This document shows positions 23,865-43,440 of a stretch of DNA of 64,000 bases, piece after piece; position 1 is the first letter of the stretch, and each line of letters begins with the position of its first letter. Position numbers and translations under genes: made by a program. The notes below the pieces were generated by a model. The model searched no databases, was not told the DNA's origin, and saw only the letters and a program-made list of their open reading frames with translations. Origin of the DNA: Acidimicrobiales bacterium (GTDB taxonomy: Bacteria > Actinomycetota > Acidimicrobiia > Acidimicrobiales > SZUA-35); contig JBOEHD010000063.1 in NCBI GenBank assembly GCA_050633745.1, positions 48,346 to 112,345 on the forward strand, written 5' to 3'.

Positions 23865-23868
23865 AGAT

Positions 23869-25257: not shown

Positions 25258-25260
25258 GGG

Positions 25261-26343: not shown

Positions 26344-26346
26344 CGG

Positions 26347-27381: not shown

Positions 27382-27451
27382 TGGAGTAACCCCATTCGAT
27401 TTCGATGGCCGGTGTTGATGGTGATGGTTGTACTGATGATGGTTGTGTTGA

Positions 27452-28384: not shown

Positions 28385-28406
28385 GATTTATTCGCCTCCT
28401 CCCCCG

Positions 28407-29504: not shown

Positions 29505-31177
29505 GATGTCGCCCCGCCCATCAGCATGCCGATTCTGTCGAGATCGGCTTCGGCCCGGCTCATTTCGCCGACGCTGCGCCCGGCGTGCATAACCACAATG
29601 CGGTGCGCCAAGTCCATCACTTCTTCGAGCTCGCTTGAGATCAACAGCACCGCCACGCCATCGGCGGCGGCTCGGCGAAGCTGGTCTGTCATGTATTCGA
29701 TCGCGCCAACGTCGAGGCCTCGAGTCGGTTGAGCAGCCACCAGCACCGCCGGGGAATGCGACAGCTCCCGAGCCAAAACGACTCGCTGCTGATTGCCGCC
29801 CGAGAGCGACCACAGCGGAGCGTCGGGGCCAGCGCAGGCTATGTCGAACTTCTCGATCATTTCCTCGGCGAAGGCCTGCAGACGTTTGCTGTCGAGCACG
29901 CCGTTCTTGGCGAAACGTTCGGGGTTTACCAGCACAAGGTTCTCGGCGACGGTCATGTCGAGCACAACGCCAGAATCGTGGCGGTCTTCGGGAATCACCG
30001 ATATGCCGGCTGCAGCCATCGCCCCGGAGCGACCGGTCTTTACAACCGTGTCGTTTACCTGCACCGAACCGGATTCAAGACCGACCAGGCTGGAGAGCAG
30101 ATCGCCCAGGGTGCGCTGACCGTTGCCCTCGACCCCGGCGATACCGACGATTTCACCGGCCCCGACCTGGAGCGATAGCCCATCGAGCAGCGTGACACCA
30201 CCGGGACCACGGGCTGTCACATCGTCAATACGTAGTACCGGTTCGCTACGCAGCACCGGCGCAGTGCTAACTCCGGCTTCTGTTCCCGCCTCCGTTTCCG
30301 ACTCGGACTCAAGCTCCGAAGCGGATTCGGTTTCGGCAACCGGCTCGGCTTCGGAGCCTCCGTTTGTGGCAACGTCGCTCAGCAGACCGAAGGCGGCCCG
30401 TTCGGAGCGCAACGAGACGTCGCGCCCGACCATGCCCCGGGCCAGGGTGCGGGCGTCGGTCTCGTTGGTGTCCATGCGATCGACGACGGCGCCACGGCGC
30501 ATGATCGTGACCTCATCGGTTGAAGCAAGGATCTCGTCGAGCTTGTGGCTTACCAGCACGACGGCCCGCCCCTCGGCGGCCACCACGTGACGCAGCGAGA
30601 TGAACAACTGCTCGGACTCGTCGGGGGTGAGCACCGAGGTCGGCTCATCGAACACCACGATGTTTGGGTTGCGACGCAGGCACTTGATAATCTCGACCCG
30701 CTGCCGCAGCCCGGCGGTCAGGTCTCCAACCCTGGCATCGGGTTCGATGGCCAGGCCGTACTCGTCGGAAATGTCGCCGATGCGGTTACGGACCGCCGCC
30801 GGATCGAGGCGACCCGCTTCGCCCAGCGCCACGTTTTCCCACACCGTCAGCGCTTCGACCAGGCTGAAGTGCTGGTGGACCATGGCGATGCCGAGCGATG
30901 AGGCGTCGAGCGGATCCTGGATCACGCTCTCCTTGCCGTCGACCCTGATCTGTCCGCTGTCCGGCAGGACCAGGCCGATGAGAATCTTCATCAACGTGGA
31001 CTTGCCAGCACCGTTCTCACCCAGGATGCCGTGGATACGGCTCCGCTTAAGCGCGAGGTCGACGTCATCGCAGGCGACGACCGCTCCAAAACGTTTTGTG
31101 ATCCCGAGCAGCTCAACCGCGGGGACCGAAGCTTCTGTAGCTTCGGTCCCCGTGGTGCTGGAGCTATTACCTGTCAC
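29501..31177 (-). CDS. ABC transporter ATP-binding protein with duplicated NBDs and an acidic inter-domain insert
   Basis: Walker A GENGAGKST, signature LSGGNQQRV / AGLRQRVEI, and Walker B VVFDEPT and LLDEP-type motifs, each present twice. The linker contains SEAEPVAETESASELESESETEAGTEAG. Confidence 0.95.
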   Translation of the reverse strand: MTGNSSSTTGTEATEASVPAVELLGITKRFGAVVACDDVDLALKRSRIHGILGENGAGKSTLMKILIGLVLPDSGQIRVDGKESVIQDPLDASSLGIAMVHQHFSLVEALTVWENVALGEAGRLDPAAVRNRIGDISDEYGLAIEPDARVGDLTAGLRQRVEIIKCLRRNPNIVVFDEPTSVLTPDESEQLFISLRHVVAAEGRAVVLVSHKLDEILASTDEVTIMRRGAVVDRMDTNETDARTLARGMVGRDVSLRSERAAFGLLSDVATNGGSEAEPVAETESASELESESETEAGTEAGVSTAPVLRSEPVLRIDDVTARGPGGVTLLDGLSLQVGAGEIVGIAGVEGNGQRTLGDLLSSLVGLESGSVQVNDTVVKTGRSGAMAAAGISVIPEDRHDSGVVLDMTVAENLVLVNPERFAKNGVLDSKRLQAFAEEMIEKFDIACAGPDAPLWSLSGGNQQRVVLARELSHSPAVLVAAQPTRGLDVGAIEYMTDQLRRAAADGVAVLLISSELEEVMDLAHRIVVMHAGRSVGEMSRAEADLDRIGMLMGGATS

Positions 31178-32367
31178 CCGCCGCTGTACGCCGCACCGGA
31201 GATGCCACCAAGCACGCCGAGTAGCTCACCATCGGTAGTCACCGCGGTGAAGGCGTCGCTTACCAACGCGTTAGAGTCGCCGGCTGCCGAGCAGAGCACG
31301 GCGCCGTTGAGTCCGGCCTCGGTTGGGAACTGGTAGGTCGAACCTTCGGCCAGGTCACCGGCGACGATCAGGCGCAAGGCCTGCGATGCGTAGATGCCAC
31401 CGTCGAACACGATGGTGCCGGTCCAGTTGATGCCATCATCCCGCTCGCAGATGTCGGCCGGCCCTGCGGCGAATACCGCCATACCCTCATCGGTTGCCAA
31501 CTGGCCAACGGGCTCGAGGGCCCCGCCGAGGTAGGCGTAGGCCAGCGTCGAGCCGTTGGCCTTTGCGTTGGTCAGCGCCGCGGTGGCGTTGCCGGAGTTG
31601 TCGAAGTCGAACTGGAAGTCGCCGGTACCGACGTACTCCATCACGAACGACGGGTCGACCGACTGCATACCGGCCACGGTGGCATCGTAAGCCTCGACCT
31701 CAAACGGGAGGTCGCAGCAGCCGAGCCATACGGCCTGGGTGCTTCCCTGTTCCTGCAGCACCGCGCCCATGGCTACACCAGCGGTGTAGTGGATGGCTGC
31801 GCCCCAGTCGGTGGCCTGAGCCAAACCGGGCAGCTCGGTGAAACCGGCTCCGCAGTTGCAGTACCAGAAGATGTCTGGGAACTGCTCGGTGAGGTCGGCT
31901 AGCGGCTCGGCGATTTCGCTGGCACCGACCATCATGATGTCGACACCCTGCTGGGCGAGGTCGGCCATGGCCTGCGCCGCTTCGGCGCTGCCGATGTTGT
32001 CGCTCACGATCGGCGGCGCGAAGCCGTTCTCAACCGAGAATGTTTCGGCGAAGTCGACCAGTGACTGGTAGTAGCCGTTGTCATCACGGGGCCCGGCGGC
32101 AGCGACGCCGATGGTGACCGTTCCATCGCCGTTTGCGTCAAACGCGGTGACCAGTTCGTCGGTCTCCGGCTCTTCTTCGGGAACCTCGGCCTGTTCTTCC
32201 TCGGTGTCCGGCTCATCGACCGTTTCGGTCGACTCCTCGGTTCCGGTGTCCGCTTCGTCGTTAGACGCTTCGGGCTCATCGCTACCGCAGGCGGCGACGA
32301 ACATTGCCAATACCGCGAGCAGTGCGACTAAACGCACCCCTCTGGCCTTAGGGAACTGTGACGACAT
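31174..32367 (-). CDS. BMP-family (Med/PnrA-like) ABC substrate-binding lipoprotein
   Basis: Lipobox LAMFVAACGS, a ~50 aa acidic linker, then BMP-type segments (TIGVAAAGPRDDNGYYQSLVDFAE). Confidence 0.85.
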   Translation of the reverse strand: MSSQFPKARGVRLVALLAVLAMFVAACGSDEPEASNDEADTGTEESTETVDEPDTEEEQAEVPEEEPETDELVTAFDANGDGTVTIGVAAAGPRDDNGYYQSLVDFAETFSVENGFAPPIVSDNIGSAEAAQAMADLAQQGVDIMMVGASEIAEPLADLTEQFPDIFWYCNCGAGFTELPGLAQATDWGAAIHYTAGVAMGAVLQEQGSTQAVWLGCCDLPFEVEAYDATVAGMQSVDPSFVMEYVGTGDFQFDFDNSGNATAALTNAKANGSTLAYAYLGGALEPVGQLATDEGMAVFAAGPADICERDDGINWTGTIVFDGGIYASQALRLIVAGDLAEGSTYQFPTEAGLNGAVLCSAAGDSNALVSDAFTAVTTDGELLGVLGGISGAAYSGG

Positions 32368-32403
32368 TTTCTCTCCTCTTCCTAACCTCTTTGTGAGGAC
32401 TGC

Positions 32404-33588
32404 TTATCGTTTAGCTGTGTCGGCTGTGGCCCACGCAGCTTGGTAGCGCGAAACGAGCCACCGATTGAACTGAATATGGCTTTCTTCCTGCCACGAGTAC
32501 CGCCCTCGTGGGGCGAAGCGGGACCGCAAACCACGCTGCACCTTGGTTGTGGCGTCCTGGTCCTGTTCGACGAAGACCTGCACGCCGGCATCCGATAGTG
32601 CCATCTTCTGTTCGAACAGCGGGTCTTCTAGTGCCGACGGGTGAAAAATGTAGCCGATCTCAACGTCGATCGTTTCGGGGCCGGTCGGACGTACCAGGAA
32701 GAAAAAGCACTGATCGGGGGCGGTGCCGAAGCACAGCGTCGGCGGGACGAGGGCGAAGGTCGAGCGGGTCCGCTCTTCTTCGGTGAGATCGGGAAAGACG
32801 TCCATGATGACCCGGTGGGTGGCATTAAAGCCACCGTCGATGTGGGTGTAGCCAGCAGTGCGAAAGATCACATTCGAATCGTCGGACCACGGCACCGGGA
32901 ACGCCGACATGCTCGACGGGCAGAAATCCTGCACGAACTGATGCAACCGGTTGGCGTGATAGCCGTCGTTGAAATTTTCGAACATCACCTTCCAGTTCCA
33001 CTCCATACCTTCGAGCGTGAATGTGCCAGGACAAACAGCGTTTTCGAGGTCGTAGTTGTTAAGGAACGATGAATAGCGATCCAGGGTCGGGGCCAGCGGG
33101 GCGGCGTCAGGATCGAAGTTCACAAAGATGAAGCCCAGCCACTCCTCGACCTTCAGTTGCGGCAGAGCAAAGGCACCCTTGTCGAAATCGATGGTCTTCT
33201 CCATGGCCGGCGCGCCGAGCAGGCGACCGTCGAGGCCATAGTTCCAGTGGTGATAGGGGCACTTGAAGGTGCTGCTGTTGCCTTCGCCCTCGCAGACCTG
33301 CATCGCCCGATGCTGGCAGACCGACGACATGGCCCGGACCTCGCCCGCCTTATCGCGAGCCACCACGATGGGTTCATCGACCAGGGTGACGGTGAACCAG
33401 TCCCCGACCTCGGGGATACGTTCGGCCCGGCCGACACAGAGCCATTCCTTCATGAACAGTGCTTCCGCCTCGAAGGCCAGCACCTCGGGCGAGGTGTAGA
33501 GCTCGCTCGGCAAGGTTACAGCGGTGCCAACATCGGTGATTGATGCGTCGAGGCCCGCCATCAGTTCGTCGGTCAGGATGTGGTTCAT
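32404..33588 (-). CDS. Rieske [2Fe-2S] non-heme-iron oxygenase, alpha-subunit type
   Basis: Rieske CQHRAMQV...CPYHHWNY. Mononuclear iron motif ENFNDGYHANRLH. Confidence 0.9.
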   Translation of the reverse strand: MNHILTDELMAGLDASITDVGTAVTLPSELYTSPEVLAFEAEALFMKEWLCVGRAERIPEVGDWFTVTLVDEPIVVARDKAGEVRAMSSVCQHRAMQVCEGEGNSSTFKCPYHHWNYGLDGRLLGAPAMEKTIDFDKGAFALPQLKVEEWLGFIFVNFDPDAAPLAPTLDRYSSFLNNYDLENAVCPGTFTLEGMEWNWKVMFENFNDGYHANRLHQFVQDFCPSSMSAFPVPWSDDSNVIFRTAGYTHIDGGFNATHRVIMDVFPDLTEEERTRSTFALVPPTLCFGTAPDQCFFFLVRPTGPETIDVEIGYIFHPSALEDPLFEQKMALSDAGVQVFVEQDQDATTKVQRGLRSRFAPRGRYSWQEESHIQFNRWLVSRYQAAWATADTAKR

Positions 33589-35159
33589 GGTTGATCGCTC
33601 GCTTGTTGCAGAAGGAATTTGCGGATCTTGCCCACGCTGGTCCGGGGCAGCTCTTCCAGGAAGGTGATGTCGCGGGGTTGTTTTGCTTTGGCTAGTCGCT
33701 CGTCACACCAGGCCATCAGGTCCTCGACCGTGGGCGGCGACTCTGGGTCAAGCGCTACGACAAACGCCACGGGGACTTCATCGCGTATCGGGTCGGGGGC
33801 GCCGACGACCGAAGCTTCGAGCACCGCGGGATGTTCGGTCAGCACCGATTCGACCTCGACGATAGAGACGTTCTCACCGGAGACCTTCAGCACGTCGGAG
33901 CGACGCCCATCGAAGAAGAATCGGCCGTCGGCGTCGACGATGGCACGGTCACCGGTGCGGAACCATGGGCCTCGAAAGCTCGCCGCGGTGGTCTCCGGGT
34001 CGGACAGGTACTCCTGGAAGAGGCTGATCCCCCGCTCCCCCCGAACCACCACTTCGCCGACCTGACCAACAGCGACCGGATGTCCGTCGGCGTCGTGAAG
34101 CTCGACCTCGCAGCCCTTGGTGACGAAACCCATCGAGTCCGGGCGAGGCTCGGTGGCGTCGTTGGTTAGGACCGCGGGGATCGTCTCGGTCATGCCGTAG
34201 AGCTGACGGGGACGGCAGCCAAACCACTCAGACAGGGTCTCGTACTGATCGTCGGCCAGGTTCTGGGCGAACCAGCAGTGACGCAGCGCGGCGCCCGGAA
34301 CCGGTCCACCGCGAGCCAGGATCATGCGCATCGGTGCGGCGAAGAGGCTGGCGCAGGTGGCCTCGTGGCGGGCCACCTGTTCAAGAAACCCGCTGGCGGA
34401 GAAGGTGTGGATCAGAGCGACCGAAGCCCCGACCGAGATGGCGGATGCGAACGAGTAGTACTGGGCGTTGGCGTGGAACAGCGGCAGCACCACCAGCTGG
34501 CGGTCCTGCGCTGTGAGCTGCGCCGCCTCGGCCATGGTCTTGCCGACAAAGGCGTAGTTGGCCTGGGTGATCACCACGCCCTTCGGCCGACCGGTGGTAC
34601 CGCTGGTGAACATCACCGCCGCGGTGTCGGTCGGCGCCGGTTCGGGCCAATTGGTGAACCCCGTATCGAAGCTGGAATCCGAGCCCGAGTCCGAATTGGA
34701 GTTGGAGTCGGAGTCGGAGTTAGAGAACGGGGCAAAGCTGGCGTCTGCCTCGTCGATCTCGATAACCACAAGGTCGGCGGGGGCTGCGGCCCGGTAGGTC
34801 TCGCGGCGGGTGGCGGCGCAGAAGCCGACAACCGGTGCGGTGCGCTCTAGATGATCGACCAGTTCAGCGGTTCGAGCCATCGGATCGCTCGGCACGATCC
34901 AAGCACCGAGTCGCGCCGCGGCGATCCACACCGCGATGAAGGTCGGGCAGTTGGTTAACGCCAGATGCACGGCGTTGCCGGGCTTGACCGAGTTGGCCGT
35001 CAGCAGCGCGGCCACCGCCGCTACTCGATGGTCGAACTCGCTATAGGTCCACTGCGTGACGCTGCCGTCGGGGCCCTCGAACCGAAGAAACACCGCGTCA
35101 GAGTGAGCGTCGACGCTGTCAGCCCATAGCTGGGCAAAGGTTGTGACCTCGTCGTTCAT
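33585..35159 (-). CDS. AMP-dependent synthetase/ligase (acyl/aryl-CoA ligase, ANL superfamily)
   Basis: MFTSGTTGRPKGV, YGMTE, FRTGDRA..DADG and PRTSVGKIRK. An unusual SNSDSDSNSNSDSGSDSS insert precedes the P-loop. Confidence 0.9.
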   Translation of the reverse strand: MNDEVTTFAQLWADSVDAHSDAVFLRFEGPDGSVTQWTYSEFDHRVAAVAALLTANSVKPGNAVHLALTNCPTFIAVWIAAARLGAWIVPSDPMARTAELVDHLERTAPVVGFCAATRRETYRAAAPADLVVIEIDEADASFAPFSNSDSDSNSNSDSGSDSSFDTGFTNWPEPAPTDTAAVMFTSGTTGRPKGVVITQANYAFVGKTMAEAAQLTAQDRQLVVLPLFHANAQYYSFASAISVGASVALIHTFSASGFLEQVARHEATCASLFAAPMRMILARGGPVPGAALRHCWFAQNLADDQYETLSEWFGCRPRQLYGMTETIPAVLTNDATEPRPDSMGFVTKGCEVELHDADGHPVAVGQVGEVVVRGERGISLFQEYLSDPETTAASFRGPWFRTGDRAIVDADGRFFFDGRRSDVLKVSGENVSIVEVESVLTEHPAVLEASVVGAPDPIRDEVPVAFVVALDPESPPTVEDLMAWCDERLAKAKQPRDITFLEELPRTSVGKIRKFLLQQASDQP

Positions 35160-35165
35160 CGTCGT

Positions 35166-36752
35166 TTACTCGGGTGTGCCGTAGCCGCCGCCGCCGGGCA
35201 GCTCCAGCCGAACAACATCTTCGCCGGCAAGGCTAATCCTGGCCTGTGTCTCGACCGACTCGCCGTTGACTTTGAATGAGCCGGCTGCTCCGGCTTCGCC
35301 GCCAAACAGGCCCAGGGGCGGGGCCGAAAGGCGGCTGGTCACCGCGTTGAGCTGCCATGCTTTGTCGGTTGCCACGCTGAACTCGATGGTTTGCCCTAGG
35401 CCGCCCGGCTGGGCACCGGAGCCGCCCGAACCGGGCCGCAGCGACTTCTCACGGAACCGGATGGGGGCCGACGCCTCGACCACCTCGATCGGCACCGCCG
35501 ACACCCCGGTGGGGTAGGAGCAGGCGTTGAGCCCGGGCTTTGAGGAACGGGCGCCAACCCCACCGGCGTAGGTGAACATGGCGGTGATGAACGGGCTGCC
35601 ATCAGGATGGTTGCCATTAACCTGCATCGTCCACACCGCACCGGCGCCTTCGGCCATCGCCGCCTCCGGTCGAACCTGAGCCAGTGCCTTGAGCAGCGCG
35701 TTTGGCAGGAACATGCCGACGACGTGGCGGGCGGTTCCCGGCTGAGGGCTGACCGCATTCACAATCGAACCCTCGGGGGCCTTCACCAGGATCGGAGCCA
35801 GGCTGCCGTGGTTGTTTGGAATGTCGGGGTTCAGTACCGAACGCACGGTGAAGGTGGTGTAGGCGTGGGTGTAGTTCATCACCACGTTGATGCCCCACGG
35901 CGAGGCCTCGGAGGTGCCTTCGTAGTCGACGGTTATCTCGCCTGCGTCTGCATCGACCTGCAGTGAGCAGACGATGTCGATGGTGCTGCCGTCGGCCAGG
36001 TCGAGCACTGCGCTGGCGTCGTATGTGCCGCTCGGCAGTTCCCGAATGCTCTCACGAGTGGCCGCTTCGGAGCGGGTGATGATCTCGTCGGCCAGGCTCT
36101 CGATGTCTTGCAGATCGTGGGCGTCGCACAGGGTCGACAGTCGCTGGGCGCCGACCTCTCCCGATGCCATCTGGGCGTGGAGGTCACCGGCCATGTGATC
36201 GGGCTGACGCACGTTCGACATGATGAACTTCCACACGTCGTCGTTTCGTTCGCCGCGCTTCATCAGCTTGCAGATCGGGATCCACAGGCCTTCCTCGAAT
36301 ACGTCGCGCCCGCCAGCGCCGATGCCGTAGCCGCCGACGTCGGTGTGGTGAATGGTCGAGCCGAACAGGGCGATGACCTTGCCGTTGCGCCACGCCGGAA
36401 CCAGCACGGTCACGTCGAGCAACTGACCGGCGGTCTTGTACGGATCGTTGGTGATCAGAATGTCGCCCGGCTCGAGCGTGTCGACCGGATACTCATCGAG
36501 CATCTTCGATGCCCCGATGGCCAGGCTGTTGATGTGCCCGGGGGTTCCGGTTACCGCCTGAGCCACCATGCGGCCACGGCGATCGAATACCGCGTTTGCC
36601 AGGTCGCCGGCTTCTCGCACGATCGGTGAGAACGCCGAACGCTGTAGCGCCCTGGCCTGCTCATTGACCGTTGAGATCAGCGACTGCCAGAGAATCTCCA
36701 GCTCGATCGGATCGAACGGGGACGACGCGGGGCGGTCTTCGATGATGGTCAT
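35166..36752 (-). CDS. hyuB: Hydantoinase B / oxoprolinase family protein
   Basis: N-terminal DPIELEILWQSLISTVNEQARALQRSAFSPIVREAGDLANAVFD, typical of Hydantoinase_B. The ATG at 36752 overlaps the hyuA stop (ATGA). I reject the track start at 36809. Confidence 0.9.
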   Translation of the reverse strand: MTIIEDRPASSPFDPIELEILWQSLISTVNEQARALQRSAFSPIVREAGDLANAVFDRRGRMVAQAVTGTPGHINSLAIGASKMLDEYPVDTLEPGDILITNDPYKTAGQLLDVTVLVPAWRNGKVIALFGSTIHHTDVGGYGIGAGGRDVFEEGLWIPICKLMKRGERNDDVWKFIMSNVRQPDHMAGDLHAQMASGEVGAQRLSTLCDAHDLQDIESLADEIITRSEAATRESIRELPSGTYDASAVLDLADGSTIDIVCSLQVDADAGEITVDYEGTSEASPWGINVVMNYTHAYTTFTVRSVLNPDIPNNHGSLAPILVKAPEGSIVNAVSPQPGTARHVVGMFLPNALLKALAQVRPEAAMAEGAGAVWTMQVNGNHPDGSPFITAMFTYAGGVGARSSKPGLNACSYPTGVSAVPIEVVEASAPIRFREKSLRPGSGGSGAQPGGLGQTIEFSVATDKAWQLNAVTSRLSAPPLGLFGGEAGAAGSFKVNGESVETQARISLAGEDVVRLELPGGGGYGTPE

Positions 36753-38836
36753 GACTGGGACTCCCGGGTTGCGATCAGGCTGCCGTCTGCGGCCACTTCC
36801 ACACTCCAACCCGGTCGGATGACCGAGGTGGTTTCTCGTTCTTCGACCACAGCAGGGCCGGAAAAGGTTGCTCCGGCGCCAAGGCTTGAGCGGTCGTAGA
36901 CCGGCGCCTCAATGGCTGCAGATCCCCGGCCAAAAACCATGGGCCGAGTGCGATTAGGGGTTGGGTCGCCGGTGGCAGGGGCGAGGTTGTCGTCTGGCTC
37001 GACCACGGTTGTGGTGGCCGATGCCGATAGCCGCCAGGTGACCGCTTCTACCGGCACATCGGGAATCGCCATGCCGTAGATCCGGCGATACTCCTCTTCG
37101 AATGCGGTGGTCAGCTGCTCGGCGGTGGCGGGCCAGGCGTTGCCTTCACCGACCCAGATGGTGATCTCGTTTCCCTGACCGGCGTAGCGGGCGTCGACGC
37201 CGTAGCGGAACACCACCGCGTCTGCGGGAACGCCTGCGGCCAGCAGCACCCGCCGCCCCTCGTCTCGGAGTTCGTCGAGCAGCGCATCGCGCTCGGCGGG
37301 CTCGATCGAGTCGACCAGGCGAGGCAACGAACGGGCAAGATCGATTCGTACCGGTGAGACCAGGGTGCCGAACGCGGAGAGCACGCTGGCGTTGACCGGG
37401 AAGATCACCGTTTCCGCTTCGAGCAGCTCGGCAACACCGCAGGCGTGAACCGGGCCGGCGCCGCCGAAAGCGATCAGCGGAATGCCTCGCAGATCGATGC
37501 CCATCTCCACACCGTGCATGCTGGCTGCGGCGGCCATATTCTGATTGACCACTTCATGGATACCGGCCGCAGTATCGATCATGGCCAGGCCGAGCCCGCC
37601 GGCGACCGTGTTAGTTGCGCCTTCGGCGGCCGGCACGTCGAGCGGCATGTCGCCACCGAGGAACGCCGCCGGATCGAGCAGACCGAGCAACATGTCGGCG
37701 TCGGTCACCGCGGGGACGGTGCCGCCGCGGCCGTAGCTGGCAGGACCGGGATCGGCGCCTGCCGACTCGGGGCCAACCTTGAGCAATCCGAACTGATCGA
37801 CCCTGGCCAAACTGCCACCGCCGGCGCCTATCTCGACCAGATCGACCGATGGCACCGATACGGGGAAGCCCGAGCCCTTCTTGAAGCGGTAGGCCCGAGC
37901 GACCTCGAAGGTGTTTGTCAGTTCGGGTTCGCTGTCGACGATCAGGCAGGCCTTGGCCGTGGTGCCGCCCATATCGAAACACAGCAGCTGCTCAACACCG
38001 AGGCGCTTGGCGAACCAGCTGCCAGCCAGGGCCCCAGCGGCGGGCCCGGATTCGACGAGGCGGATAGGGCCTCGGGCCGCGTCCTCGGCCGATACCACGC
38101 CGCCATTAGACAGCATCATCAGTACCGAGCCGCCGAAGCCTTCGGCCGACAACCACTTCTGTAGCTCGTCGAGGTACGGGCCGATGACCGGCATCGTCGA
38201 GGCGTTACATGCCGTTGTGACCATGCGGGGGTACTCGCGGATCTGGGGCGAAATTTCGGCCGAGATGCAGACCGGAACGCCAAGCTCGGCCCGCAGGTAG
38301 TCGGCTACTTTGACCTCGTTAGCCCGGTTGACGTAGGAGTTCAGCAGGCAGATGGCCACCGATTCCACGTCGGCGGCCCGCAGCTGGGTGGCCAGTGCAG
38401 CCAGCGCGGCATCGCTCGGGTCGGTGAGGATCGAACCGTCGGCCGCGGTGCGCTCGTCGAGTTCGAAGGTGAGATCCCGGGGAATCGGAGGAGCGGGGAA
38501 CTCGATCTGCAGGTCGTACATGTCGTAGCGATGCTCGTCGCGGATCAGCAGCGTGTCGCCGAAGCCCTGGGTAGTGACCAGGCCTGCTCGGCCGGTTTTG
38601 CCCTCGATCAGCGCGTTGGTGATGAGGGTGGTGGCGTGGACGATCGGCGCGGTGATGTCGCTCGGGGCTACCCCGGCCTTGGCCAGCAGTTGGGTCACGC
38701 CGGCGCGCACCCCGTCGAGTGGGGCGGCGGGGGTGGTCAACGTTTTGTCGACCACTACTCGACCGGTCTCGCCGTCGAGCAAAACCACATCGGTAAACGT
38801 TCCACCGATATCGACCGCAAGGCGCCAGTCGGCCAT
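36749..38836 (-). CDS. hyuA: Hydantoinase A / oxoprolinase family protein (ATP-hydrolysing subunit)
   Basis: WRLAVDIGGTFTDVVLLD at the N-terminus, an internal FDMGGTTAK, and a length of 695 aa. Confidence 0.9.
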   Translation of the reverse strand: MADWRLAVDIGGTFTDVVLLDGETGRVVVDKTLTTPAAPLDGVRAGVTQLLAKAGVAPSDITAPIVHATTLITNALIEGKTGRAGLVTTQGFGDTLLIRDEHRYDMYDLQIEFPAPPIPRDLTFELDERTAADGSILTDPSDAALAALATQLRAADVESVAICLLNSYVNRANEVKVADYLRAELGVPVCISAEISPQIREYPRMVTTACNASTMPVIGPYLDELQKWLSAEGFGGSVLMMLSNGGVVSAEDAARGPIRLVESGPAAGALAGSWFAKRLGVEQLLCFDMGGTTAKACLIVDSEPELTNTFEVARAYRFKKGSGFPVSVPSVDLVEIGAGGGSLARVDQFGLLKVGPESAGADPGPASYGRGGTVPAVTDADMLLGLLDPAAFLGGDMPLDVPAAEGATNTVAGGLGLAMIDTAAGIHEVVNQNMAAAASMHGVEMGIDLRGIPLIAFGGAGPVHACGVAELLEAETVIFPVNASVLSAFGTLVSPVRIDLARSLPRLVDSIEPAERDALLDELRDEGRRVLLAAGVPADAVVFRYGVDARYAGQGNEITIWVGEGNAWPATAEQLTTAFEEEYRRIYGMAIPDVPVEAVTWRLSASATTTVVEPDDNLAPATGDPTPNRTRPMVFGRGSAAIEAPVYDRSSLGAGATFSGPAVVEERETTSVIRPGWSVEVAADGSLIATRESQS

Positions 38837-39219
38837 CAGCCTTCCCTCAGATCGTCACGGGGCGGGGCGAACACATCGAGAATCCAGCATTCGTCGTACT
38901 CGTCGTCACCGACGAAGATGCTGTCGCCGTGCCAAACGCTCGGCGGCGCAAGGTAAGCCTGATGTTCGTCAAGCACCGTTCTCTCGGCGTCATCGTCATC
39001 GCTCACGATGCGGAAGTCGAGGGCGCCGCGCACGATAACCCCGAGCTGCTCATGATCGTCGTGCTTGTGCAGGAACGAGCCGGTGGCACCGCCCTTGATC
39101 CGCCAGAAACAGAGCTGCAGATTTTCGCCGGTGATAACCCGGCGGCGGAAGCCTTCCCGGTCGGTCTCGACAAACTCGTCGTCTTCAAAGAAGTGGCAGT
39201 ACTGGTTTGCAAGGTTCAT
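38836..39219 (-). CDS. Cupin-domain protein
   Basis: About 127 aa with a cupin-like GSFLHKHDDHEQLGVIVRG...PPSVWHG pattern. Coupled on both sides (TGATG at 38836, a 4-nt overlap at 39216-39219). Confidence 0.7.
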   Translation of the reverse strand: MNLANQYCHFFEDDEFVETDREGFRRRVITGENLQLCFWRIKGGATGSFLHKHDDHEQLGVIVRGALDFRIVSDDDDAERTVLDEHQAYLAPPSVWHGDSIFVGDDEYDECWILDVFAPPRDDLREG

Positions 39220-39704
39220 TCGTTCGTCTCCAATAGGGCGCCGTATTTGCCCACGTCGGCCGCCAAGTCGAGAGGCCGGATGATCGCTTGATGCTCATCA
39301 TCGCCCCATAGATGCGGAGGCACCAGCCACATGACCTCAAATTCCAGGCCATCAGGATCTTTGCAGTACAGGCTCTTGTTCACGCCATGGTCCGAAGCCC
39401 CAGCCAGCGAGCCAGCAGCCCGGAGGCGTTCTTCCATTTCCACCAGTTGGCTCAGCGTGCTGACTTCCCAGGCAACGTGATACATGCCGACGGTTTCCTT
39501 GCCCGCGGCCGAGGGTCCTGCGCCGTCGCCGATGGTAAAGAAGGCGATGTCGTGGTGGTTGTCCGAGCTTGGTGCCCGCATGAAGGCGTACTTGCCTTCC
39601 TCACTCATGATGGTTTTGAAGTCGAGAACGTCTTCGTAAAACTCACGATGGCGGTCTGAGCTCCGCACGTACAACACGGCGTGATTCATGCCCTTTATGC
39701 TCAT
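39216..39704 (-). CDS. VOC-family protein resembling one-domain extradiol dioxygenases
   Basis: MNHAVLYVRSSDRHREFYEDVLDF, HHDIAFF, YHVAWEV and YCKDPDGLEFEVMW (His/His/Glu-type metal pattern). Confidence 0.8.
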   Translation of the reverse strand: MSIKGMNHAVLYVRSSDRHREFYEDVLDFKTIMSEEGKYAFMRAPSSDNHHDIAFFTIGDGAGPSAAGKETVGMYHVAWEVSTLSQLVEMEERLRAAGSLAGASDHGVNKSLYCKDPDGLEFEVMWLVPPHLWGDDEHQAIIRPLDLAADVGKYGALLETNE

Positions 39705-39717
39705 TTGGTTACGCTCA

Positions 39718-40710
39718 TTATTCGGCTCCTATCATCTCGGCGAAGCGGCGGCGCCACTCGACCGAAGGTCTATCCGACTGCACATTGACCAGCCCGGTCC
39801 GACCGAGCGGCAGGGTGCCGGAGACCTGTTCCAACATCTTCTTGTCTTCGGCACCGATGGCTCGGTCGAAGGCGATGATCTCTTCCGGGTCGGTGTTGTG
39901 ATCGTCGTTCCGCCACACCACAAAGGTAAACAGCGAATGCAGATCGTCGACCGGGGTGCTGCACAGCAACAGTATGTGCTCTAGCCCGTCGTCGTAAGCG
40001 ATGGTGCTTCGCACCGTAAACGGCAGGGCAAAGCCGGTGGTCATAACCCGGTGCACCGTTTCTTCCTCGCTACCGCTGACCGCAACCGCTTCGTCGGGGT
40101 TGGCGGCGTCGACCTCGTATCGGTAGCCGAAAAAGCCGTCGGCGAGTTCTTGCAGGCTCAGCTTCGGGACCATGGGGTCTTGGCCTGCGCCGAACGTGCC
40201 GGTGTGAACCCAGGGGAAGTGACTGAAGTCCATGAAGTTGTCGACCATACGGGGGGCCGAAGCCGCCCACGGTTCAACGCCGGTGTTTAGCCGTCTAAAC
40301 GCCGGGTCGTCGTCCTGGGCGATGGTTGGAATCTCGGTGGTCGGTTCGCCAGGGCAAACCCAGATCAGGCCGTACTTGTCGGCCACCTGTTTGGTCTCGA
40401 GATGGGCTGTCGGGGGAATCGCTGCGTCAGGGCCAGACGATGGCACGAGCGTGCATCGGCCCTCTGATCCGAACTCCCAGCCGTGGTAGGCGCACGAAAG
40501 CGTGCCGGCGTTGCTGGTGCCGATCGACAGTGGTGCTTCGCGGTGGGGGCAGCGGTCAGCCGCGGCGATCGGCTCACCATCGGGGCCTCGCCACAGCACT
40601 AGATCCTCGCCAAGTAGCCGAATCGGGCGGGGTGAGACATTGAGGTCGGACGAATCAACGACCGGATACCAGGCCCCTCGCAATGACTCACTTTGTACGA
40701 ATGACGTCAT
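39718..40710 (-). CDS. Rieske [2Fe-2S] oxygenase, phthalate-family / PaO-KshA-VanA-like; first gene of the long operon
   Basis: CPHREAPLS...CAYHGWEF and the iron motif NFMDFSHFPWVH. I prefer the ATG at 40710 (MTSFVQSE), preceded by GGGAG. The track start at 40797 would bury the operator-like palindrome in coding sequence. Confidence 0.85.
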   Translation of the reverse strand: MTSFVQSESLRGAWYPVVDSSDLNVSPRPIRLLGEDLVLWRGPDGEPIAAADRCPHREAPLSIGTSNAGTLSCAYHGWEFGSEGRCTLVPSSGPDAAIPPTAHLETKQVADKYGLIWVCPGEPTTEIPTIAQDDDPAFRRLNTGVEPWAASAPRMVDNFMDFSHFPWVHTGTFGAGQDPMVPKLSLQELADGFFGYRYEVDAANPDEAVAVSGSEEETVHRVMTTGFALPFTVRSTIAYDDGLEHILLLCSTPVDDLHSLFTFVVWRNDDHNTDPEEIIAFDRAIGAEDKKMLEQVSGTLPLGRTGLVNVQSDRPSVEWRRRFAEMIGAE

Positions 40711-40776
40711 GGAGCTCCCGAATCCAACTGCTACCTGACCTACTACCTGACCTGGCGGCCTGACCGTGTGGCTCTC

Positions 40777-40797
40777 TTGGTCTGACCAACTGACCAA
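40777..40797. promoter_or_regulatory. Putative GntR-family operator upstream of the 15-gene operon
   Basis: TTGGTCTGACCAACTGACCAA. It has a TTGGT-N3-ACCAA inverted repeat plus a tandem second CTGACCAA. The 17-mer GGTCTGACCAACTGACC recurs at 42157-42173 beside the GntR gene. The site lies in the 110-bp divergent gap between 40710 and 40821. Confidence 0.5.
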
Positions 40798-40820
40798 GAG
40801 AATATCCTACAATAACAGAT

Positions 40821-41276
40821 GTGCCCGCAACCTCTGAATCGTTAAATCCCGGATCCGCTGCCGCGGTGGCCCGTTCCTACCTGAACGCCTTCACCGACCG
40901 GGATCCTGCGGCCATCGCGGCCCACGTCGCCGATGGCTTCATAAACGAACACACTTCGGCACTGGGCGCTGGTTGCATCGGGCGCGCTGCCTACCTCGAA
41001 CGCTTGCCGGGCTTCTTAGCCGACATGGTCGACCTCGACTACCAAATCGAAGAGCTCGTGGTCGACGGCGACCGAGTGGCGGCGTTCTACACGATGACCG
41101 CTCGCTGGCAGGGCCAAGCGCCCATCTCGGTGCGAGGTGTGCAGCGGTTAGTGATCGCCGAAGGACTGATCGTTCACCGCACCGATTACTGGGACAGCGC
41201 AGTGTTTCTGACCCAGGCCAGCGAAGAGGCCAGATCGGCGCTGGCCTCGTTCGGCGTCAACAGCCCGAGCGATTAG
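40821..41276 (+). CDS. SnoaL/NTF2-like (ester-cyclase-like) protein
   Basis: ARSYLNAFTDRDPAAIAAHVADGFINEH and later IVHRTDYWD, typical of the SnoaL-like fold. GTG start. Confidence 0.7.
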   Translation: MPATSESLNPGSAAAVARSYLNAFTDRDPAAIAAHVADGFINEHTSALGAGCIGRAAYLERLPGFLADMVDLDYQIEELVVDGDRVAAFYTMTARWQGQAPISVRGVQRLVIAEGLIVHRTDYWDSAVFLTQASEEARSALASFGVNSPSD

Positions 41277-41303
41277 CTGAGACTGTCAGCCAACCGAGGG
41301 CCG

Positions 41304-42041
41304 TTAATCCAGATCGTCGACCATCGACTGTTCAACCGAGTTCAGGTGCTCTTCGGCCGCGGCTCGCACGCCGTCGACATCGCCGGCGACAAAGGCGCTG
41401 GCGATCAGGCGATGGGCTTCGCTGGAGTCGGCGATGATGCGACTCACTTCGGGCTGGTTGCTCTCAGCGCTTAGAAGGGCGTCGAACTCGTGCGACCGGA
41501 ACAGCCGATCCAACACCTTGCCGTAAAGCTCGATCAGCAACGGGTTGCCGCAGTTAGATGCAATGGTGGTGTGGAACTGACGATCGAGTCGACGGAACCC
41601 AACGATGTCGAGATCCTCGTCGAACTGCTTCACCAGCGCCTCGACCTCTGCCCTCGCTTTGCCATCAGCTCGACCGGCGGCCAACACGAAGATCGGCACT
41701 TCAAGCACTCGTCTGGTCTCGAACAATTCGGCCACGAACGACTTGCGGTCGCCGCCATCATCGACAACCACATCGGGAAGGTGCTCGGCGACGTACGAGC
41801 GGTTGCCTTTTCGTTCGACGACGCCGAGCGAGAGTAAACCCTGCATGGCCTCTCGGACCGAGGTCCGGGCCACTTGAAAGCGGTCGCTGAGTTCGCGCTC
41901 GGATGGCATGGCCGCGCCCGGCGCGAGTTCGCCCATCGTTATGCGAGCCAACAGCTGGGCTCGCACCTGAGCACTTACCGTTTCCCGCTCGATCGGAGCG
42001 AAGGGGTGGGGTTCAGCCGAGCGAGATTCAGACATCGTCAC
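41304..42041 (-). CDS. GntR-family transcriptional regulator (FadR/FCD subfamily)
   Basis: N-terminal winged HTH: LPSERELSDRFQVARTSVREAMQGLLSLGVVE. The C-terminal helical FCD-type domain has His residues. Confidence 0.9.
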   Translation of the reverse strand: MTMSESRSAEPHPFAPIERETVSAQVRAQLLARITMGELAPGAAMPSERELSDRFQVARTSVREAMQGLLSLGVVERKGNRSYVAEHLPDVVVDDGGDRKSFVAELFETRRVLEVPIFVLAAGRADGKARAEVEALVKQFDEDLDIVGFRRLDRQFHTTIASNCGNPLLIELYGKVLDRLFRSHEFDALLSAESNQPEVSRIIADSSEAHRLIASAFVAGDVDGVRAAAEEHLNSVEQSMVDDLD

Positions 42042-42112
42042 TAGTCACCGTCATTAGTTGCCCTTGCAGGTCATAAGCGCCTTTTGTAGCCCGGATGGTG
42101 GTCCTGGGCCAA

Positions 42113-42132
42113 TTGTCTGACCAACGGGCCAA
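42113..42132. promoter_or_regulatory. Putative GntR operator (degenerate copy)
   Basis: TTGTCTGACCAACGGGCCAA, the same layout as 40777-40797. It lies in the GntR/VOC divergent intergenic region. Confidence 0.35.
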
Positions 42133-42154
42133 ACCATAGCTCCTGATGAAACTG

Positions 42155-42175
42155 GTGGTCTGACCAACTGACCGA
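42155..42175. promoter_or_regulatory. Putative GntR operator (autoregulatory copy)
   Basis: GTGGTCTGACCAACTGACCGA. It shares an exact 17-mer with the 40777-40797 site and sits 16 nt upstream of the GTG at 42191. Confidence 0.5.
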
Positions 42176-42190
42176 TGATAGGTTCGAACT

Positions 42191-42673
42191 GTGAGCGATT
42201 CCATCTACGAACTTCATCCGACAGAACCACGGTGGACCCACATTGCGCTGCGGGTCAAAGACATCGACGCAACCATCGCCTGGTTCGAGGAGTTCACCCC
42301 GATACGTCTCATCGATCGCCGCGAAGACGACATGGGCTACGGCGCATGGCTCGGCATGAAGGGCGAGACCAACAATCCGTTCGTTCTGGTGCTGGCCCAG
42401 TTCTTCGACGGCAAAGACCCGTTCGCCGACGCTCCAATCGCCACGCTCGCTCCATTCGCCCACTTCGGTATGGAATTGCCGAAGCGAGAAGATGTCGATG
42501 CCATCGCCGAAAAGGCCGCCGCGGCCGGTTGCCTTGGCATGCCGCCGACGATGATGCCAGCCCCTATCGGCTACATCACCATGCTGCGCGACCCCGACGG
42601 GAACATGGTCGAGTTCTCATGGGACCAGGGCGTCTACGCCACTCTGCAAGAGCAGTGGGACGCAGAAAAGTAA
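42191..42673 (+). CDS. VOC (glyoxalase-fold) family protein
   Basis: WTHIALRVKDIDATIAWFEEFT, HFGMELP and MLRDPDGNMVEFSW. Confidence 0.75.
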   Translation: MSDSIYELHPTEPRWTHIALRVKDIDATIAWFEEFTPIRLIDRREDDMGYGAWLGMKGETNNPFVLVLAQFFDGKDPFADAPIATLAPFAHFGMELPKREDVDAIAEKAAAAGCLGMPPTMMPAPIGYITMLRDPDGNMVEFSWDQGVYATLQEQWDAEK

Positions 42674-43354: not shown

Positions 43355-43440
43355 TTTGGGCTCCAAGTACAGATCGGATGGTTCACAGAACAGCGAGTAT
43401 CCTCCACCTGCATGCCTGATGTCGAGGAGAGGGAACGCCA

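What the first reader, a model, noticed from the sequence alone, without database searches (positions are those of the whole stretch)
40777..42175. Three copies of a GntR-type operator motif (exact shared 17-mer) link the regulator to the 15-gene operon
The sequence GGTCTGACCAACTGACC occurs exactly twice in 64 kb, and both copies are in divergent promoter gaps.
- 40779-40795 lies between the Rieske gene that opens the operon and the SnoaL-like gene.
- 42157-42173 lies between the GntR gene and the VOC gene.

In full, the first site reads TTGGT-CTG-ACCAA-CTG-ACCAA. That is the classic GntR/FadR-type T.GT-N3-AC.A inverted repeat plus a tandem extra half-site. Its flanks (CTTGGTC...GACCAAG) are also palindromic.

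A third, degenerate copy (TTGTCTGACCAACGGGCCAA, 42113-42132) lies 23 nt upstream of the second. This predicts one regulon with four promoters: the 15-gene operon, the SnoaL gene, the regulator itself and the VOC gene at 42191. It also supports the shorter start (40710) for the Rieske gene.
Basis: seen in the sequence. Interest (0 to 1): 0.55.

Follow-up and report, generated by a model that had tools for sequence, protein, structure and literature searches.

The report
Repressor binding sites for a catabolic cluster
Three copies of a short DNA motif next to a GntR/FadR-type regulator gene are almost certainly that repressor's binding sites, because dozens of related genomes keep them at the same promoters; this is a solid but ordinary example of a well-known kind of gene switch.

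Summary
The exact shared repeat is 18 nt, not 17: TGGTCTGACCAACTGACC at 40778-40795 and 42156-42173. A degenerate third copy lies at 42113-42132. A matrix built only from related genomes finds exactly these three sites in the 64 kb window.

- About 45 orthologous loci from Ilumatobacter-like Acidimicrobiia were examined. In them the 19-21 bp motif is almost invariant, while the flanking intergenic DNA is randomised.
- The motif always sits on a core promoter: just upstream of an extended -10 box for the VOC gene, at about +1 of the Rieske gene, and near the start of the regulator's own transcript.
- The 11-bp core TGGTCTGACCA is identical to the proven operator of Corynebacterium glutamicum LldR. 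The regulator has GntR and FCD domains and the FadR DNA-contact arginines.

- The motif is a composite: a palindrome plus an extra half-site 8 bp away.
- Most relatives carry a fourth operator between the Rieske gene and the next gene. It is absent here.
- The SnoaL gene is optional.
- A distant GntR lineage in soil metagenomes uses the same 18-mer.

Verdict: a new member of a known kind, of modest interest.

The parts
40777..40797 (.). Operator 1 (class C): TTGGTCTGACCAACTGACCAA. It has an 11-bp palindrome TGGTC-T-GACCA (40778-40788) plus an extra half-site CTGACCAA 8 bp away. It lies between the Rieske and SnoaL genes.
   Evidence: Exact repeat. Matrix score 36.5 of a possible 37.1. The orthologous position is conserved in 40 unique loci with uninformative flanks.
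42155..42175 (.). Operator 2 (class A): GTGGTCTGACCAACTGACCGA. It abuts the predicted extended -10 box of the VOC gene promoter.
   Evidence: (score 34.8). In 37 of 39 orthologous sites a TANNNT box, 32 of them with a preceding TGn, lies mostly 4-6 nt beyond the extra half-site on the VOC strand.
42106..42132 (.). Operator 3 (class B), nearest the regulator gene: GGGCCAA-TTGTCTGACCAA-CGGGCCAA. The central palindrome is degenerate and is flanked by GGCCAA-type outer half-sites.
   Evidence: 3-mismatch match. Matrix score 19.3 against a shuffle maximum of 15.4. Orthologues show a symmetric four-half-site site, tGGnccGnTGGTCnGACCAatgGnCCa, at the same place.
41304..42041 (-). Gene for the FadR-subfamily GntR regulator, with a winged-helix DNA-binding domain and an FCD effector domain. 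The ATG at 42035 is an alternative start.
   Evidence: Pfam GntR 9.7e-16 and FCD 1.9e-22. Best solved relatives are NanR, LldR and PdhR. Conserved are R49/R59/R63 and the FCD residues H157/H210/H232, with D153 nearly invariant.
39718..40710 (-). Rieske oxygenase gene (VanA_C type, nearest to NdmA). It is the first gene of the minus-strand cluster; the start at 40710 is supported.
   Evidence: Pfam, solved structures, and the conserved N-terminus and ribosome-binding site in orthologues.
22836..40710 (-). Fifteen co-directional genes with gaps of 70 bp or less: Rieske, VOC, cupin, hydantoinase A/B, AMP-ligase, Rieske alpha subunit, unknown, ABC ATPase, two permeases, ADH, O-methyltransferase, amidohydrolase, unknown. 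This is the presumed target operon.
   Evidence: ORFs, Pfam, synteny with L001-L019. A single transcript is inferred from spacing only.
40821..41276 (+). SnoaL-like gene, divergent from the Rieske gene. It is an accessory member, absent from about half of the related clusters.
   Evidence: Pfam, synteny.
42191..42673 (+). VOC (glyoxalase-fold) gene, divergent from the regulator. This pairing is kept in almost all relatives.
   Evidence: Pfam, synteny.
42176..42184 (+). Predicted extended -10 box TGATAGGTT of the VOC promoter. It ends 6 nt before the GTG start, so the mRNA is probably leaderless.
   Evidence: Read from the sequence. Its position is conserved in 37 of 39 orthologous sites. The promoter itself is inferred.
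40804..40809 (-). Predicted -10 box TAGGAT of the Rieske promoter, 6-7 nt upstream of operator 1. This puts the operator at about +1 to +21.
   Evidence: Read from the sequence. In 20 of 40 orthologous sites a TANNNT box ends 7-9 nt before the operator. Inferred.
40808..40813 (+). Predicted -10 box TACAAT of the SnoaL promoter, 7 nt before the annotated GTG. Operator 1 then falls in its -35 and spacer region.
   Evidence: Read from the sequence. TACAAT/TAGACT/TACACT occurs at the same offset in SnoaL-bearing relatives L006, L007 and L013. Inferred.
42133..42138 (-). Predicted -10 box TATGGT of the regulator's own promoter, next to the outer half-site of operator 3.
   Evidence: TAGGGT or TATGGT lies directly before TTGGCCCG in the window, L012, L014 and L015. 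Inferred; other relatives have a TATAAT box on the other side of the site instead.

Best explanation
The three motifs are operators of the adjacent FadR-subfamily GntR repressor.

**How repression works.** Without its ligand, the dimeric repressor binds the TGGTC-N-GACCA palindrome. It probably recruits a further subunit or dimer through the extra half-site 8 bp away. Because every site overlaps a core promoter, binding keeps RNA polymerase off.
- Operator 2 covers roughly -14 to -35 of the VOC gene promoter.
- Operator 1 covers about +1 to +21 of the Rieske/15-gene cluster promoter, and the -35/spacer region of the back-to-back SnoaL promoter.
- Operator 3 sits at the start of the regulator's own transcript, giving negative autoregulation.

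**How induction works.** A small molecule, probably a substrate or intermediate of the pathway, binds the FCD domain (likely metal-containing) and releases the repressor. The whole cluster is then switched on together.

**Shown here:** the sites, their conservation, their positions relative to conserved -10-like boxes, and the regulator's family.

**Inferred:** binding by this protein, repression rather than activation, stoichiometry, the inducer, and transcription of the 15 genes as one unit.
For: - **Significance and specificity in the window.** Shuffles expect 0.23 matches against 3 found. A matrix from orthologues finds exactly these 3 sites.
- **Phylogenetic footprint.** In 19 loci found through the regulator protein alone (58-79% identity), the 21-mer recurs with 1-3 mismatches upstream of the regulator and upstream of the Rieske gene. 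Information content is near maximal across 19 positions and near zero in the flanks.
- **Restricted distribution.** Across 347 kb, 63 core hits with at most one mismatch fall in the four expected gaps and 28 fall elsewhere. Of those 28, all but two carry one mismatch; several recur in the Rieske alpha-subunit gene.
- **Promoter overlap.** 37 of 39, 20 of 40 and 23 of 25 sites have a TANNNT box at a fixed offset in the three site classes. Background is 0.0068 per nt.
- **Regulator identity.** GntR and FCD domains. The arginines equivalent to FadR R35/R45/R49 are invariant (PMC2602784).
- **Known operator.** The core is identical to the LldR operator TGGTCTGACCA, which lies at -4 to +13 of its promoter and has an adjacent weak TTGGGCCAA site that takes a second dimer.
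- **Co-occurrence with GntR genes.** In an independent metagenome scan for the 18-mer, 26 of 80 loci are the orthologous cluster. About 17 more carry the motif directly upstream of a distant GntR/FCD gene of 30-34% identity.
- **Lineage tracking.** More distant Acidimicrobiales homologues (33-35% identity) lack the motif.
Against: - There is no binding, expression or transcription-start data.
- The tool's sigma-70 scan finds no canonical -35/-10 pair in 40600-42300. The promoter boxes are -10-only predictions in a phylum whose promoters are poorly characterised.
- A distant GntR lineage uses the same 18-mer, and LldR uses the same core. A paralogue elsewhere in this unseen genome could therefore also bind.
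- Some 18-mer hits in metagenomes are coding-sequence coincidences, for example L033 inside a peptidase M28 ORF.
- The fourth operator that relatives have before the second gene is absent here. Control of the downstream 14 genes therefore depends on read-through from the Rieske promoter, which is untested.
Confidence: 0.8

Rival explanations
1. The sites are real FadR-type operators, but they are bound mainly by a different FadR-family regulator encoded elsewhere in the genome (for example an LldR-like protein). The adjacent GntR would then be only a bystander or a co-regulator.
For: The same 11-bp core is the LldR operator in another actinobacterium. The same 18-mer is used by a GntR lineage only 30-34% identical. 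On TARA contig L035 the motif sits upstream of a different oxygenase pair with no GntR gene on the 11 kb held.
Against: In the 18 protein-found loci that show the regulator's upstream region, its gene is directly flanked by the sites, including one over its own promoter region. The motif is missing next to more distant homologues in the same class. Local autoregulated repressors are the rule in this subfamily (PMC4494728).
Confidence: 0.08
2. The regulator activates, or both activates and represses, from these sites rather than acting as a simple repressor.
For: Some FadR-family proteins, FadR itself included, activate at certain promoters (general knowledge). The promoter assignments here are only predictions.
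Against: In all three site classes the motif overlaps or abuts the -10 box or the predicted start site. This is the geometry of steric repression, as for LldR at -4 to +13.
Confidence: 0.07
3. The inverted repeat at site 1 acts at the RNA level, as a hairpin at the 5' end of the Rieske mRNA that affects stability or attenuation, rather than (or as well as) serving as a protein-binding DNA site.
For: The window sequence folds into a 10-11 bp stem of -15.7 kcal/mol, z = -4.1. Orthologous class C sites form a 7-9 bp stem, TGGTCAG-TTGGT-CTGACCA. The centre base T that makes this outer repeat perfect occurs in 14 of 15 protein-found class C sites, but in 0 of 16 class A sites, which are not predicted to be transcribed.
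Against: The same motif is conserved at positions upstream of the -10 box, where it is not transcribed (classes A and D). Z-scores in orthologues vary from -1.3 to -5. Rfam gives no match. The window itself carries the 'wrong' centre base.
Confidence: 0.04
4. The motif is a dispersed genomic repeat (REP/MITE-like) or a chance recurrence with no regulatory role.
For: Exact 18-mer hits also occur inside coding sequences in unrelated metagenome contigs, for example L033, L056 and L083 in a peptidase M28 gene.
Against: There are only three sites in 64 kb, all intergenic. Across 347 kb of related loci, perfect cores lie almost only in the four orthologous gaps. Position, orientation and promoter offset are conserved.
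Confidence: 0.01

Closest known systems
LldR (CGL2915) of Corynebacterium glutamicum and its cgl2917-lldD operator
   Same: - It is a FadR-subfamily GntR repressor from an actinobacterium.
- The high-affinity site is the identical 11-bp palindrome TGGTCTGACCA, overlapping the transcription start (-4 to +13).
- An adjacent weak TTGGGCCAA-type site lets a second dimer bind (PMC2602784).
- The window's operator 3 is likewise flanked by GGGCCAA elements.
- The PDB entry 2di3 aligns with the window regulator at E = 5e-10.
   Different: - It is not an orthologue: the NCBIfam LldR model scores 67.8 bits against a cut-off of 311.
- The target genes are not lactate genes.
- The extra half-site here is fixed 8 bp from the palindrome half-site and is as conserved as the core. 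The LldR second site lies 15 bp centre-to-centre from the first, counted from the oligonucleotide sequence.
NanR of Escherichia coli
   Same: - It is the best-scoring solved structure (6on4, E = 1.3e-12) and the best NCBIfam model (98 bits).
- NanR recognises tandem direct repeats of an 8-mer, TGGTATAW (PMC4494728), and assembles several dimers cooperatively on them (PMC8012715).
- The motif here can be read as (TGGTCAGW)x2 followed by CCA, that is, a tandem repeat with the same 8-bp period.
   Different: - The score is far below the NanR cut-off of 260, and the targets are not sialic acid genes.
- The repeat unit differs, and here it ends in a true palindrome.
- NanR cooperativity needs a 32-residue N-terminal extension. 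This regulator has about 23 residues before the winged helix. The distant GntR lineage that uses the same 18-mer has only about 10.
FadR and PdhR of E. coli (archetypal FadR-subfamily palindrome binders)
   Same: - Domain architecture, the DNA-contact arginines, and the TGGTN3ACCA consensus with a 3-nt GT...AC spacing.
- One or two sites in a divergent regulator/structural-gene gap, as catalogued for the subfamily.
   Different: FadR has the FadR_C effector domain rather than FCD. Its operator is a single pseudopalindrome with no phased third half-site.
DipR of Alcaligenes faecalis (a GntR/FadR repressor with six operators in one catabolic cluster)
   Same: One local FadR-type repressor controls several promoters of a single catabolic cluster and its own gene. 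The sites overlap the -35/-10/+1 region and are conserved across strains (PMC11472048).
   Different: Its motif is different (GWATAC), as are its pathway and phylum. DipR binding has been shown experimentally; binding here has not.

Membership tests
GntR superfamily, FadR subfamily (FCD type) | N-terminal GntR winged helix-turn-helix domain | tested here: met
   Pfam PF00392, E = 9.7e-16, residues 24-82.
GntR superfamily, FadR subfamily (FCD type) | All-helical C-terminal FCD effector/oligomerisation domain with conserved Asp/His metal ligands | tested here: met
   Pfam PF07729, E = 1.9e-22. H157, H210 and H232 are invariant and D153 is nearly invariant across 10 aligned homologues. That these are metal ligands comes from general knowledge of FCD structures.
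GntR superfamily, FadR subfamily (FCD type) | DNA-contact residues equivalent to FadR Arg35, Arg45, Arg49 and Gly66 | tested here: met
   R49, R59 and R63 are invariant and G79 is nearly invariant. They align with the PSER / VSR / LRE arginines of LldR, which PMC2602784 equates with the FadR residues.
GntR superfamily, FadR subfamily (FCD type) | Operator matching T.GT-N3-AC.A (TGGTN3ACCA) in the promoter of adjacent genes | tested here: met
   TGGTCTGACCA at 40778-40788 and 42156-42166, and TTGTCTGACCA at 42113-42123. Consensus taken.
GntR superfamily, FadR subfamily (FCD type) | The protein binds the operator and is released by a small-molecule effector | not testable with these tools
   This needs EMSA or footprinting and ligand screening. 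Only co-occurrence and conservation are available.
LldR (lactate regulator) orthologous group | Passes the equivalog model and controls a lactate permease/dehydrogenase operon | tested here: not met
   NCBIfam NF007741 scores 67.8 bits against a cut-off of 311. The neighbouring genes are oxygenases, hydantoinase-type enzymes and ABC transporter genes.
NanR (sialic acid regulator) subfamily | Passes the subfamily model | tested here: not met
   NF003011 scores 98.3 bits against a cut-off of 260.
NanR (sialic acid regulator) subfamily | Operator made of two or more tandem 8-bp-period repeats, bound cooperatively by several dimers through a long N-terminal extension | tested here: inconclusive
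   An 8-bp-period tandem TGGTCAG-T-TGGTCAG is present and conserved. However, the repeat sequence differs, there are only two units, and the N-terminal extension is shorter. The extension is also absent from the distant GntR lineage that shares the motif. Stoichiometry is untestable here.
Dispersed repeat (REP/MITE-like) | Many copies at unrelated positions, including inside genes | tested here: not met
   Three copies in 64 kb, all intergenic. In 347 kb of relatives, perfect cores are almost confined to four orthologous gaps.
Known structured RNA (Rfam) | Match to a covariance model at or above the gathering score | tested here: not met
   The only hit is RAGATH-28 at 23.3 bits against a gathering score of 45.3, E = 0.21. 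It lies inside the Rieske coding region, not at the motifs.

The most novel reading that the evidence does not exclude
The third half-site, phased 8 bp from the palindrome, may define a distinct and widespread composite operator class, (TGGTCAGW)x2-CCA. This class would combine FadR/LldR-type palindrome recognition with NanR-type tandem-repeat recognition, and would load more than one dimer on a 19-21 bp site.

The centre base would then set which pair of half-sites is optimal. It is A at all 16 VOC-proximal sites and T at 14 of 15 Rieske sites. With A the site is a perfect direct repeat; with T it is a perfect outer inverted repeat. This could tune affinity or stoichiometry promoter by promoter, or add a hairpin at the 5' end of the Rieske mRNA.

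The same composite is shared by unrelated regulons in marine Acidimicrobiia and in soil bacteria.
Probability: 0.25. Interest if true: 0.5.

Novelty: new member of a known kind. Interest (0 to 1): 0.3.

Why it matters
- **Regulatory map.** The result gives a confident, testable map for a conserved 15-gene catabolic cluster of unknown substrate in Ilumatobacter-like marine and freshwater Acidimicrobiia, a group with almost no experimental genetics.
- **Route to the substrate.** The repressor and operator pair could be used to find the inducer, and so the pathway substrate. The enzymes resemble N-demethylases and N-methylhydantoinase.
- **Promoter information.** The conserved operator-to-promoter offsets give rare evidence on promoter architecture in this class: -10-only and extended -10 boxes, and probably leaderless transcripts.
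- **Limits.** The switch is a textbook FadR-type arrangement, so the conceptual gain is small unless the three-half-site architecture proves mechanistically distinct.

Tried and rejected
- **Dispersed repeat:** rejected by the matrix scan of the window and by core-motif counts in 347 kb of related loci.
- **Recent local duplication as the cause of the identical copies:** rejected. Both positions are conserved across about 40 loci with unrelated flanks. The identity over 18 nt in the window comes from an atypical centre base at site 1.
- **Extra half-site as a -35 promoter element:** rejected. The composite keeps its internal geometry while sitting upstream of the -10 box (class A), downstream of it (class C) or over it (class D).
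- **Known RNA family:** none found.
- **Canonical sigma-70 promoters:** the tool finds none, so promoter calls rest on conserved TANNNT boxes only.
- **Additional operators inside the window's operon:** the gaps at 32368-32403, 27382-27451, 28385-28406 and 39705-39717 hold none. The matrix hit at 12150 is coding.
- **A fifth operator before the unknown 397-aa gene:** it exists in L008, and nearby in L019, but not generally.
- **All metagenome 18-mer hits as operators:** not so. Some are coding coincidences (L033-type). The collection's size is not given, so the chance rate could not be computed.
- **Fixed-phase cooperative pairing of the two sites in the regulator/VOC gap:** not supported. Spacing ranges from 42 to 143 bp across relatives.
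- **Not attempted:** the large protein-database searches, structure prediction and fold search. Family assignment was already clear, and these tools cannot model DNA binding.
Full report
**1. The observation**

The 17-mer GGTCTGACCAACTGACC occurs exactly twice, at 40779-40795 and 42157-42173. A 3-mismatch copy lies at 42114-42130. Dinucleotide-preserving shuffles expect 0.23 matches, and none of 100 shuffles gave three. The repeat finder shows the exact shared stretch is 18 nt, TGGTCTGACCAACTGACC (40778-40795 and 42156-42173). It also confirms the flanking 10-nt inverted repeat TCTCTTGGTC/GACCAAGAGA around site 1.

Pfam confirms the neighbouring genes:
- a Rieske/VanA_C oxygenase (39718-40710, -), which opens a run of 15 co-directional genes;
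- a SnoaL-like gene (40821-41276, +);
- a GntR+FCD regulator (41304-42041, -);
- a VOC (glyoxalase-fold) gene (42191-42673, +).

All three motif copies are intergenic.

**2. Anatomy of the motif**

Site 1 reads TTGGTC-T-GACCAA-CT-GACCAA. It therefore holds a perfect 13-bp palindrome plus a third half-site. On the other strand it reads TTGGTCAG-TTGGTCAG-ACCAA, which is a tandem 8-bp-period repeat ending in the palindrome. Site 2 is gTGGTC-T-GACCAA-CT-GACCga. Site 3 is GGGCCAA-TTGTC-T-GACCAA-CG-GGCCAA: a degenerate palindrome flanked by GGCCAA-type elements.

**3. Comparative test**

A search of one genome per species with the regulator protein returned 19 orthologous loci (58-79% identity). All are MAGs, and most are labelled Ilumatobacter, Acidimicrobiia or a broader actinobacterial taxon. 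It also returned 11 distant homologues.

tblastn shows conserved synteny. The VOC gene is divergent from the regulator. An optional SnoaL gene follows. Then come Rieske, VOC, cupin, hydantoinase A and B, AMP-ligase, Rieske alpha subunit and the unknown gene.

These loci were found without using the motif. Even so, the 21-mer recurs with 1-3 mismatches at the same positions.

Adding orthologous metagenome contigs allows each site class to be anchored on the core. Information content is then near maximal over 19 positions and near zero in the flanks. There are 40 unique sequences for the Rieske site.

Across 347 kb of these loci plus the window, 63 core matches with at most one mismatch fall in four specific gaps and 28 fall elsewhere. 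Of the latter, all but two carry one mismatch, and several recur in the Rieske alpha-subunit gene.

A matrix trained on 42 orthologous sites, with the window excluded, scores the three window sites at 36.5, 34.8 and 19.3. The next hit scores 11.8 and lies inside a 685-aa ORF. The shuffle maximum is 15.4. The motif is therefore a conserved, position-specific element and not a dispersed repeat.

**4. Geometry relative to promoters**

The tool's sigma-70 scan finds no canonical -35/-10 pair. Conserved -10-type boxes (TANNNT), however, sit at fixed offsets from the motif, against a background of 0.0068 per nt.

| Site class | Position | Sites with a TANNNT box at the fixed offset | Implied operator position |
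|---|---|---|---|
| A | VOC-proximal | 37 of 39 (32 preceded by TGn), mostly 4-6 nt beyond the extra half-site on the VOC strand | about -14 to -35 |
| C | Rieske gene | 20 of 40, ending 7-9 nt upstream | about +1 to +21 |
| D | fourth site in relatives | 23 of 25, TATGGT overlapping the palindrome | over the -10 box |

In the window the predicted boxes are:
- TGATAGGTT (42176-42184), 6 nt before the VOC GTG, so the transcript is probably leaderless;
- TAGGAT (40809-40804, - strand), upstream of operator 1 for the Rieske gene;
- TACAAT (40808-40813), for SnoaL;
- TATGGT (42138-42133, - strand), for the regulator.

The internal geometry of the composite motif stays the same while its position relative to the -10 box differs between classes. 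The third half-site therefore belongs to the protein-binding site and is not a promoter element.

All these placements are the steric-repression kind. LldR's site, for example, lies at -4 to +13.

**5. The regulator**

It has GntR and FCD domains. The best solved relatives are NanR (E = 1.3e-12), C. glutamicum LldR (5e-10) and PdhR (1.8e-09). The best NCBIfam models are NanR, LldR and PdhR, all far below their cut-offs. It is thus a FadR-subfamily member but not an orthologue of any named regulator.

The arginines equivalent to FadR R35/R45/R49 are invariant. So are three FCD histidines; an FCD aspartate is nearly invariant.

**6. What is already known**

The 11-bp core is identical to the operator of C. 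glutamicum LldR, TGGTCTGACCA, which was defined by EMSA and ITC. There, an adjacent weak TTGGGCCAA site allows a second dimer to bind (PMC2602784). It is also cited as such in PMC11472048.

NanR, the closest solved relative, binds tandem TGGTATAW repeats (PMC4494728). It assembles three dimers cooperatively through an N-terminal extension (PMC8012715).

The present operator reads as a hybrid of the two: an LldR/FadR palindrome whose left half is duplicated in tandem with an 8-bp period.

Divergent gaps with two operon-specific sites are common in the subfamily. Here the spacing of the two sites in the regulator/VOC gap varies from 42 to 143 bp among relatives, which points to independent sites.

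**7. How far the motif spreads**

- 26 are the orthologous cluster.
- About 17 carry the 18-mer directly upstream of a GntR/FCD gene only 30-34% identical, in a different conserved context (cCGACTCTGC-motif-TTTGACAAGT...TGTCAAG). One example lies next to sugar-type ABC transporter genes.
- Some of the rest are coding coincidences, for example inside a peptidase M28 gene.

More distant Acidimicrobiales homologues (33-35% identity) lack the motif. The composite operator therefore predates this cluster and is not unique to it. This leaves a small chance of cross-talk with a paralogue.

**8. Differences between the window and its relatives**

- Most relatives have a fourth operator, GCTA-TGGTCTGACCA-TCAGTCCAC, in a gap of about 100 bp between the Rieske gene and the next (VOC) gene. 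In the window and in its closest relative L001 these genes are 13 and 2 bp apart and the site is gone. Control of the downstream genes here must come from the Rieske promoter.
- SnoaL is absent from about half of the relatives, yet site 1 is retained.
- In motif-unbiased loci the centre base of the palindrome is A at all 16 VOC-proximal sites and T at 14 of 15 Rieske sites. The window is the single exception, which is why its two copies are identical.
- With T, the Rieske site is a perfect outer inverted repeat, TGGTCAG-TTGGT-CTGACCA, and can fold as an RNA hairpin. A symmetric dimer cannot sense this base, so its class-specific conservation is unexplained.

**9. Rivals considered**

| Rival | Weight | Basis |
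|---|---|---|
| Dispersed repeat | rejected | |
| Known RNA family | none found | |
| RNA hairpin acting alone | about 0.04 | the motif is also conserved where it is not transcribed |
| Different cognate regulator | about 0.08 | same motif used by other GntR lineages |
| Activator rather than repressor | about 0.07 | promoter assignments are predictions |

**10. Verdict**

This is a new member of a known kind: a locally encoded, autoregulated FadR-type repressor with operators over the promoters of its catabolic cluster.

The three-half-site composite operator and its class-specific centre base are the only features that might go beyond the textbook. Testing them needs binding and stoichiometry experiments.

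Noticed in passing
window 40778-40788 and 42156-42166; loci L001-L019: The centre base of the palindrome is class-specific in relatives: A at all 16 VOC-proximal sites and T at 14 of 15 Rieske sites, in the same orientation. The window's Rieske site is the only exception. A symmetric dimer cannot read this base, so its conservation is unexplained. It switches the site between a perfect tandem repeat and a perfect outer inverted repeat.
   Followed up: partly
window 40728-40765: The Rieske leader holds a tandem 12-mer, CTGCTACCTGAC/CTACTACCTGAC. Together with a third unit this gives three GGTCAGG elements on the minus strand, in the same orientation as the operator half-sites. Relatives lack this. 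They could be extra weak half-sites or slippage products.
   Followed up: partly
L002-L011, L013, L016, L017, L019 (e.g. L003 11883-11903); absent at window 39705-39717: A fourth conserved operator, GCTATGGTCTGACCATCAGTCCAC, lies between the Rieske gene and the next gene (VOC or cupin) in most relatives. Its TATGGT box overlaps the palindrome. The window and L001 have lost both the gap and the site.
   Followed up: yes
L042, L044, L047, L054, L057, L069, L070, L073, L074, L085, L087, L091, L103, L105, L106: Soil-metagenome contigs carry the identical 18-mer just upstream of a GntR/FCD gene only 30-34% identical to the window's. It sits in its own conserved context (…CGACTCTGC-motif-TTTGACAAGT…TGTCAAG). 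In L091 it lies next to sugar-type ABC transporter genes.
   Followed up: partly
window 22836-40710: The cluster enzymes point to catabolism of an N-methylated heterocycle or betaine-like compound. The first Rieske protein is nearest to the caffeine N-demethylases NdmA/NdmB and to SxtT. The second is nearest to carnitine monooxygenase CntA and stachydrine demethylase. The hydantoinase A/B pair is nearest to N-methylhydantoinase and caprolactamase. An amidohydrolase, an O-methyltransferase, an ADH and a branched-chain-type ABC importer are also present. The substrate is unknown.
   Followed up: partly
L035 3783-3800 (TARA contig): The same 18-mer sits upstream of a different pair of Rieske oxygenase genes (42-44% identity to the window's). 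No GntR gene is detected on the 11 kb held.
   Followed up: no
L008 19271-19281; L019 18971-18981: An additional operator-like site (TGGTCTGACCATCAGGCCAA and TGGTAAGACCATCAGTCCA) lies after the Rieske alpha-subunit gene, upstream of the unknown 397-aa gene, in two relatives only.
   Followed up: yes
L004, L006, L009 (record titles): Contigs binned as Gammaproteobacteria, Chthoniobacterales and Azotimanducaceae MAGs carry the Ilumatobacter-type cluster. L004 and L009 match L003 gene for gene; L006, like the window, also carries SnoaL. This suggests mis-binning or recent horizontal transfer.
   Followed up: no
window 40585-40664 (-): A weak Rfam match to RAGATH-28 (23.3 bits against a gathering score of 45.3, E = 0.21) lies inside the Rieske coding region. 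It is most likely chance.
   Followed up: no
window 42701-43708 (-) and 43441-44325 (+): The nitroreductase-family ORF and the acyl-CoA thioesterase ORF overlap by about 270 bp as listed, with their 5' ends facing. At least one start codon is probably further downstream.
   Followed up: no
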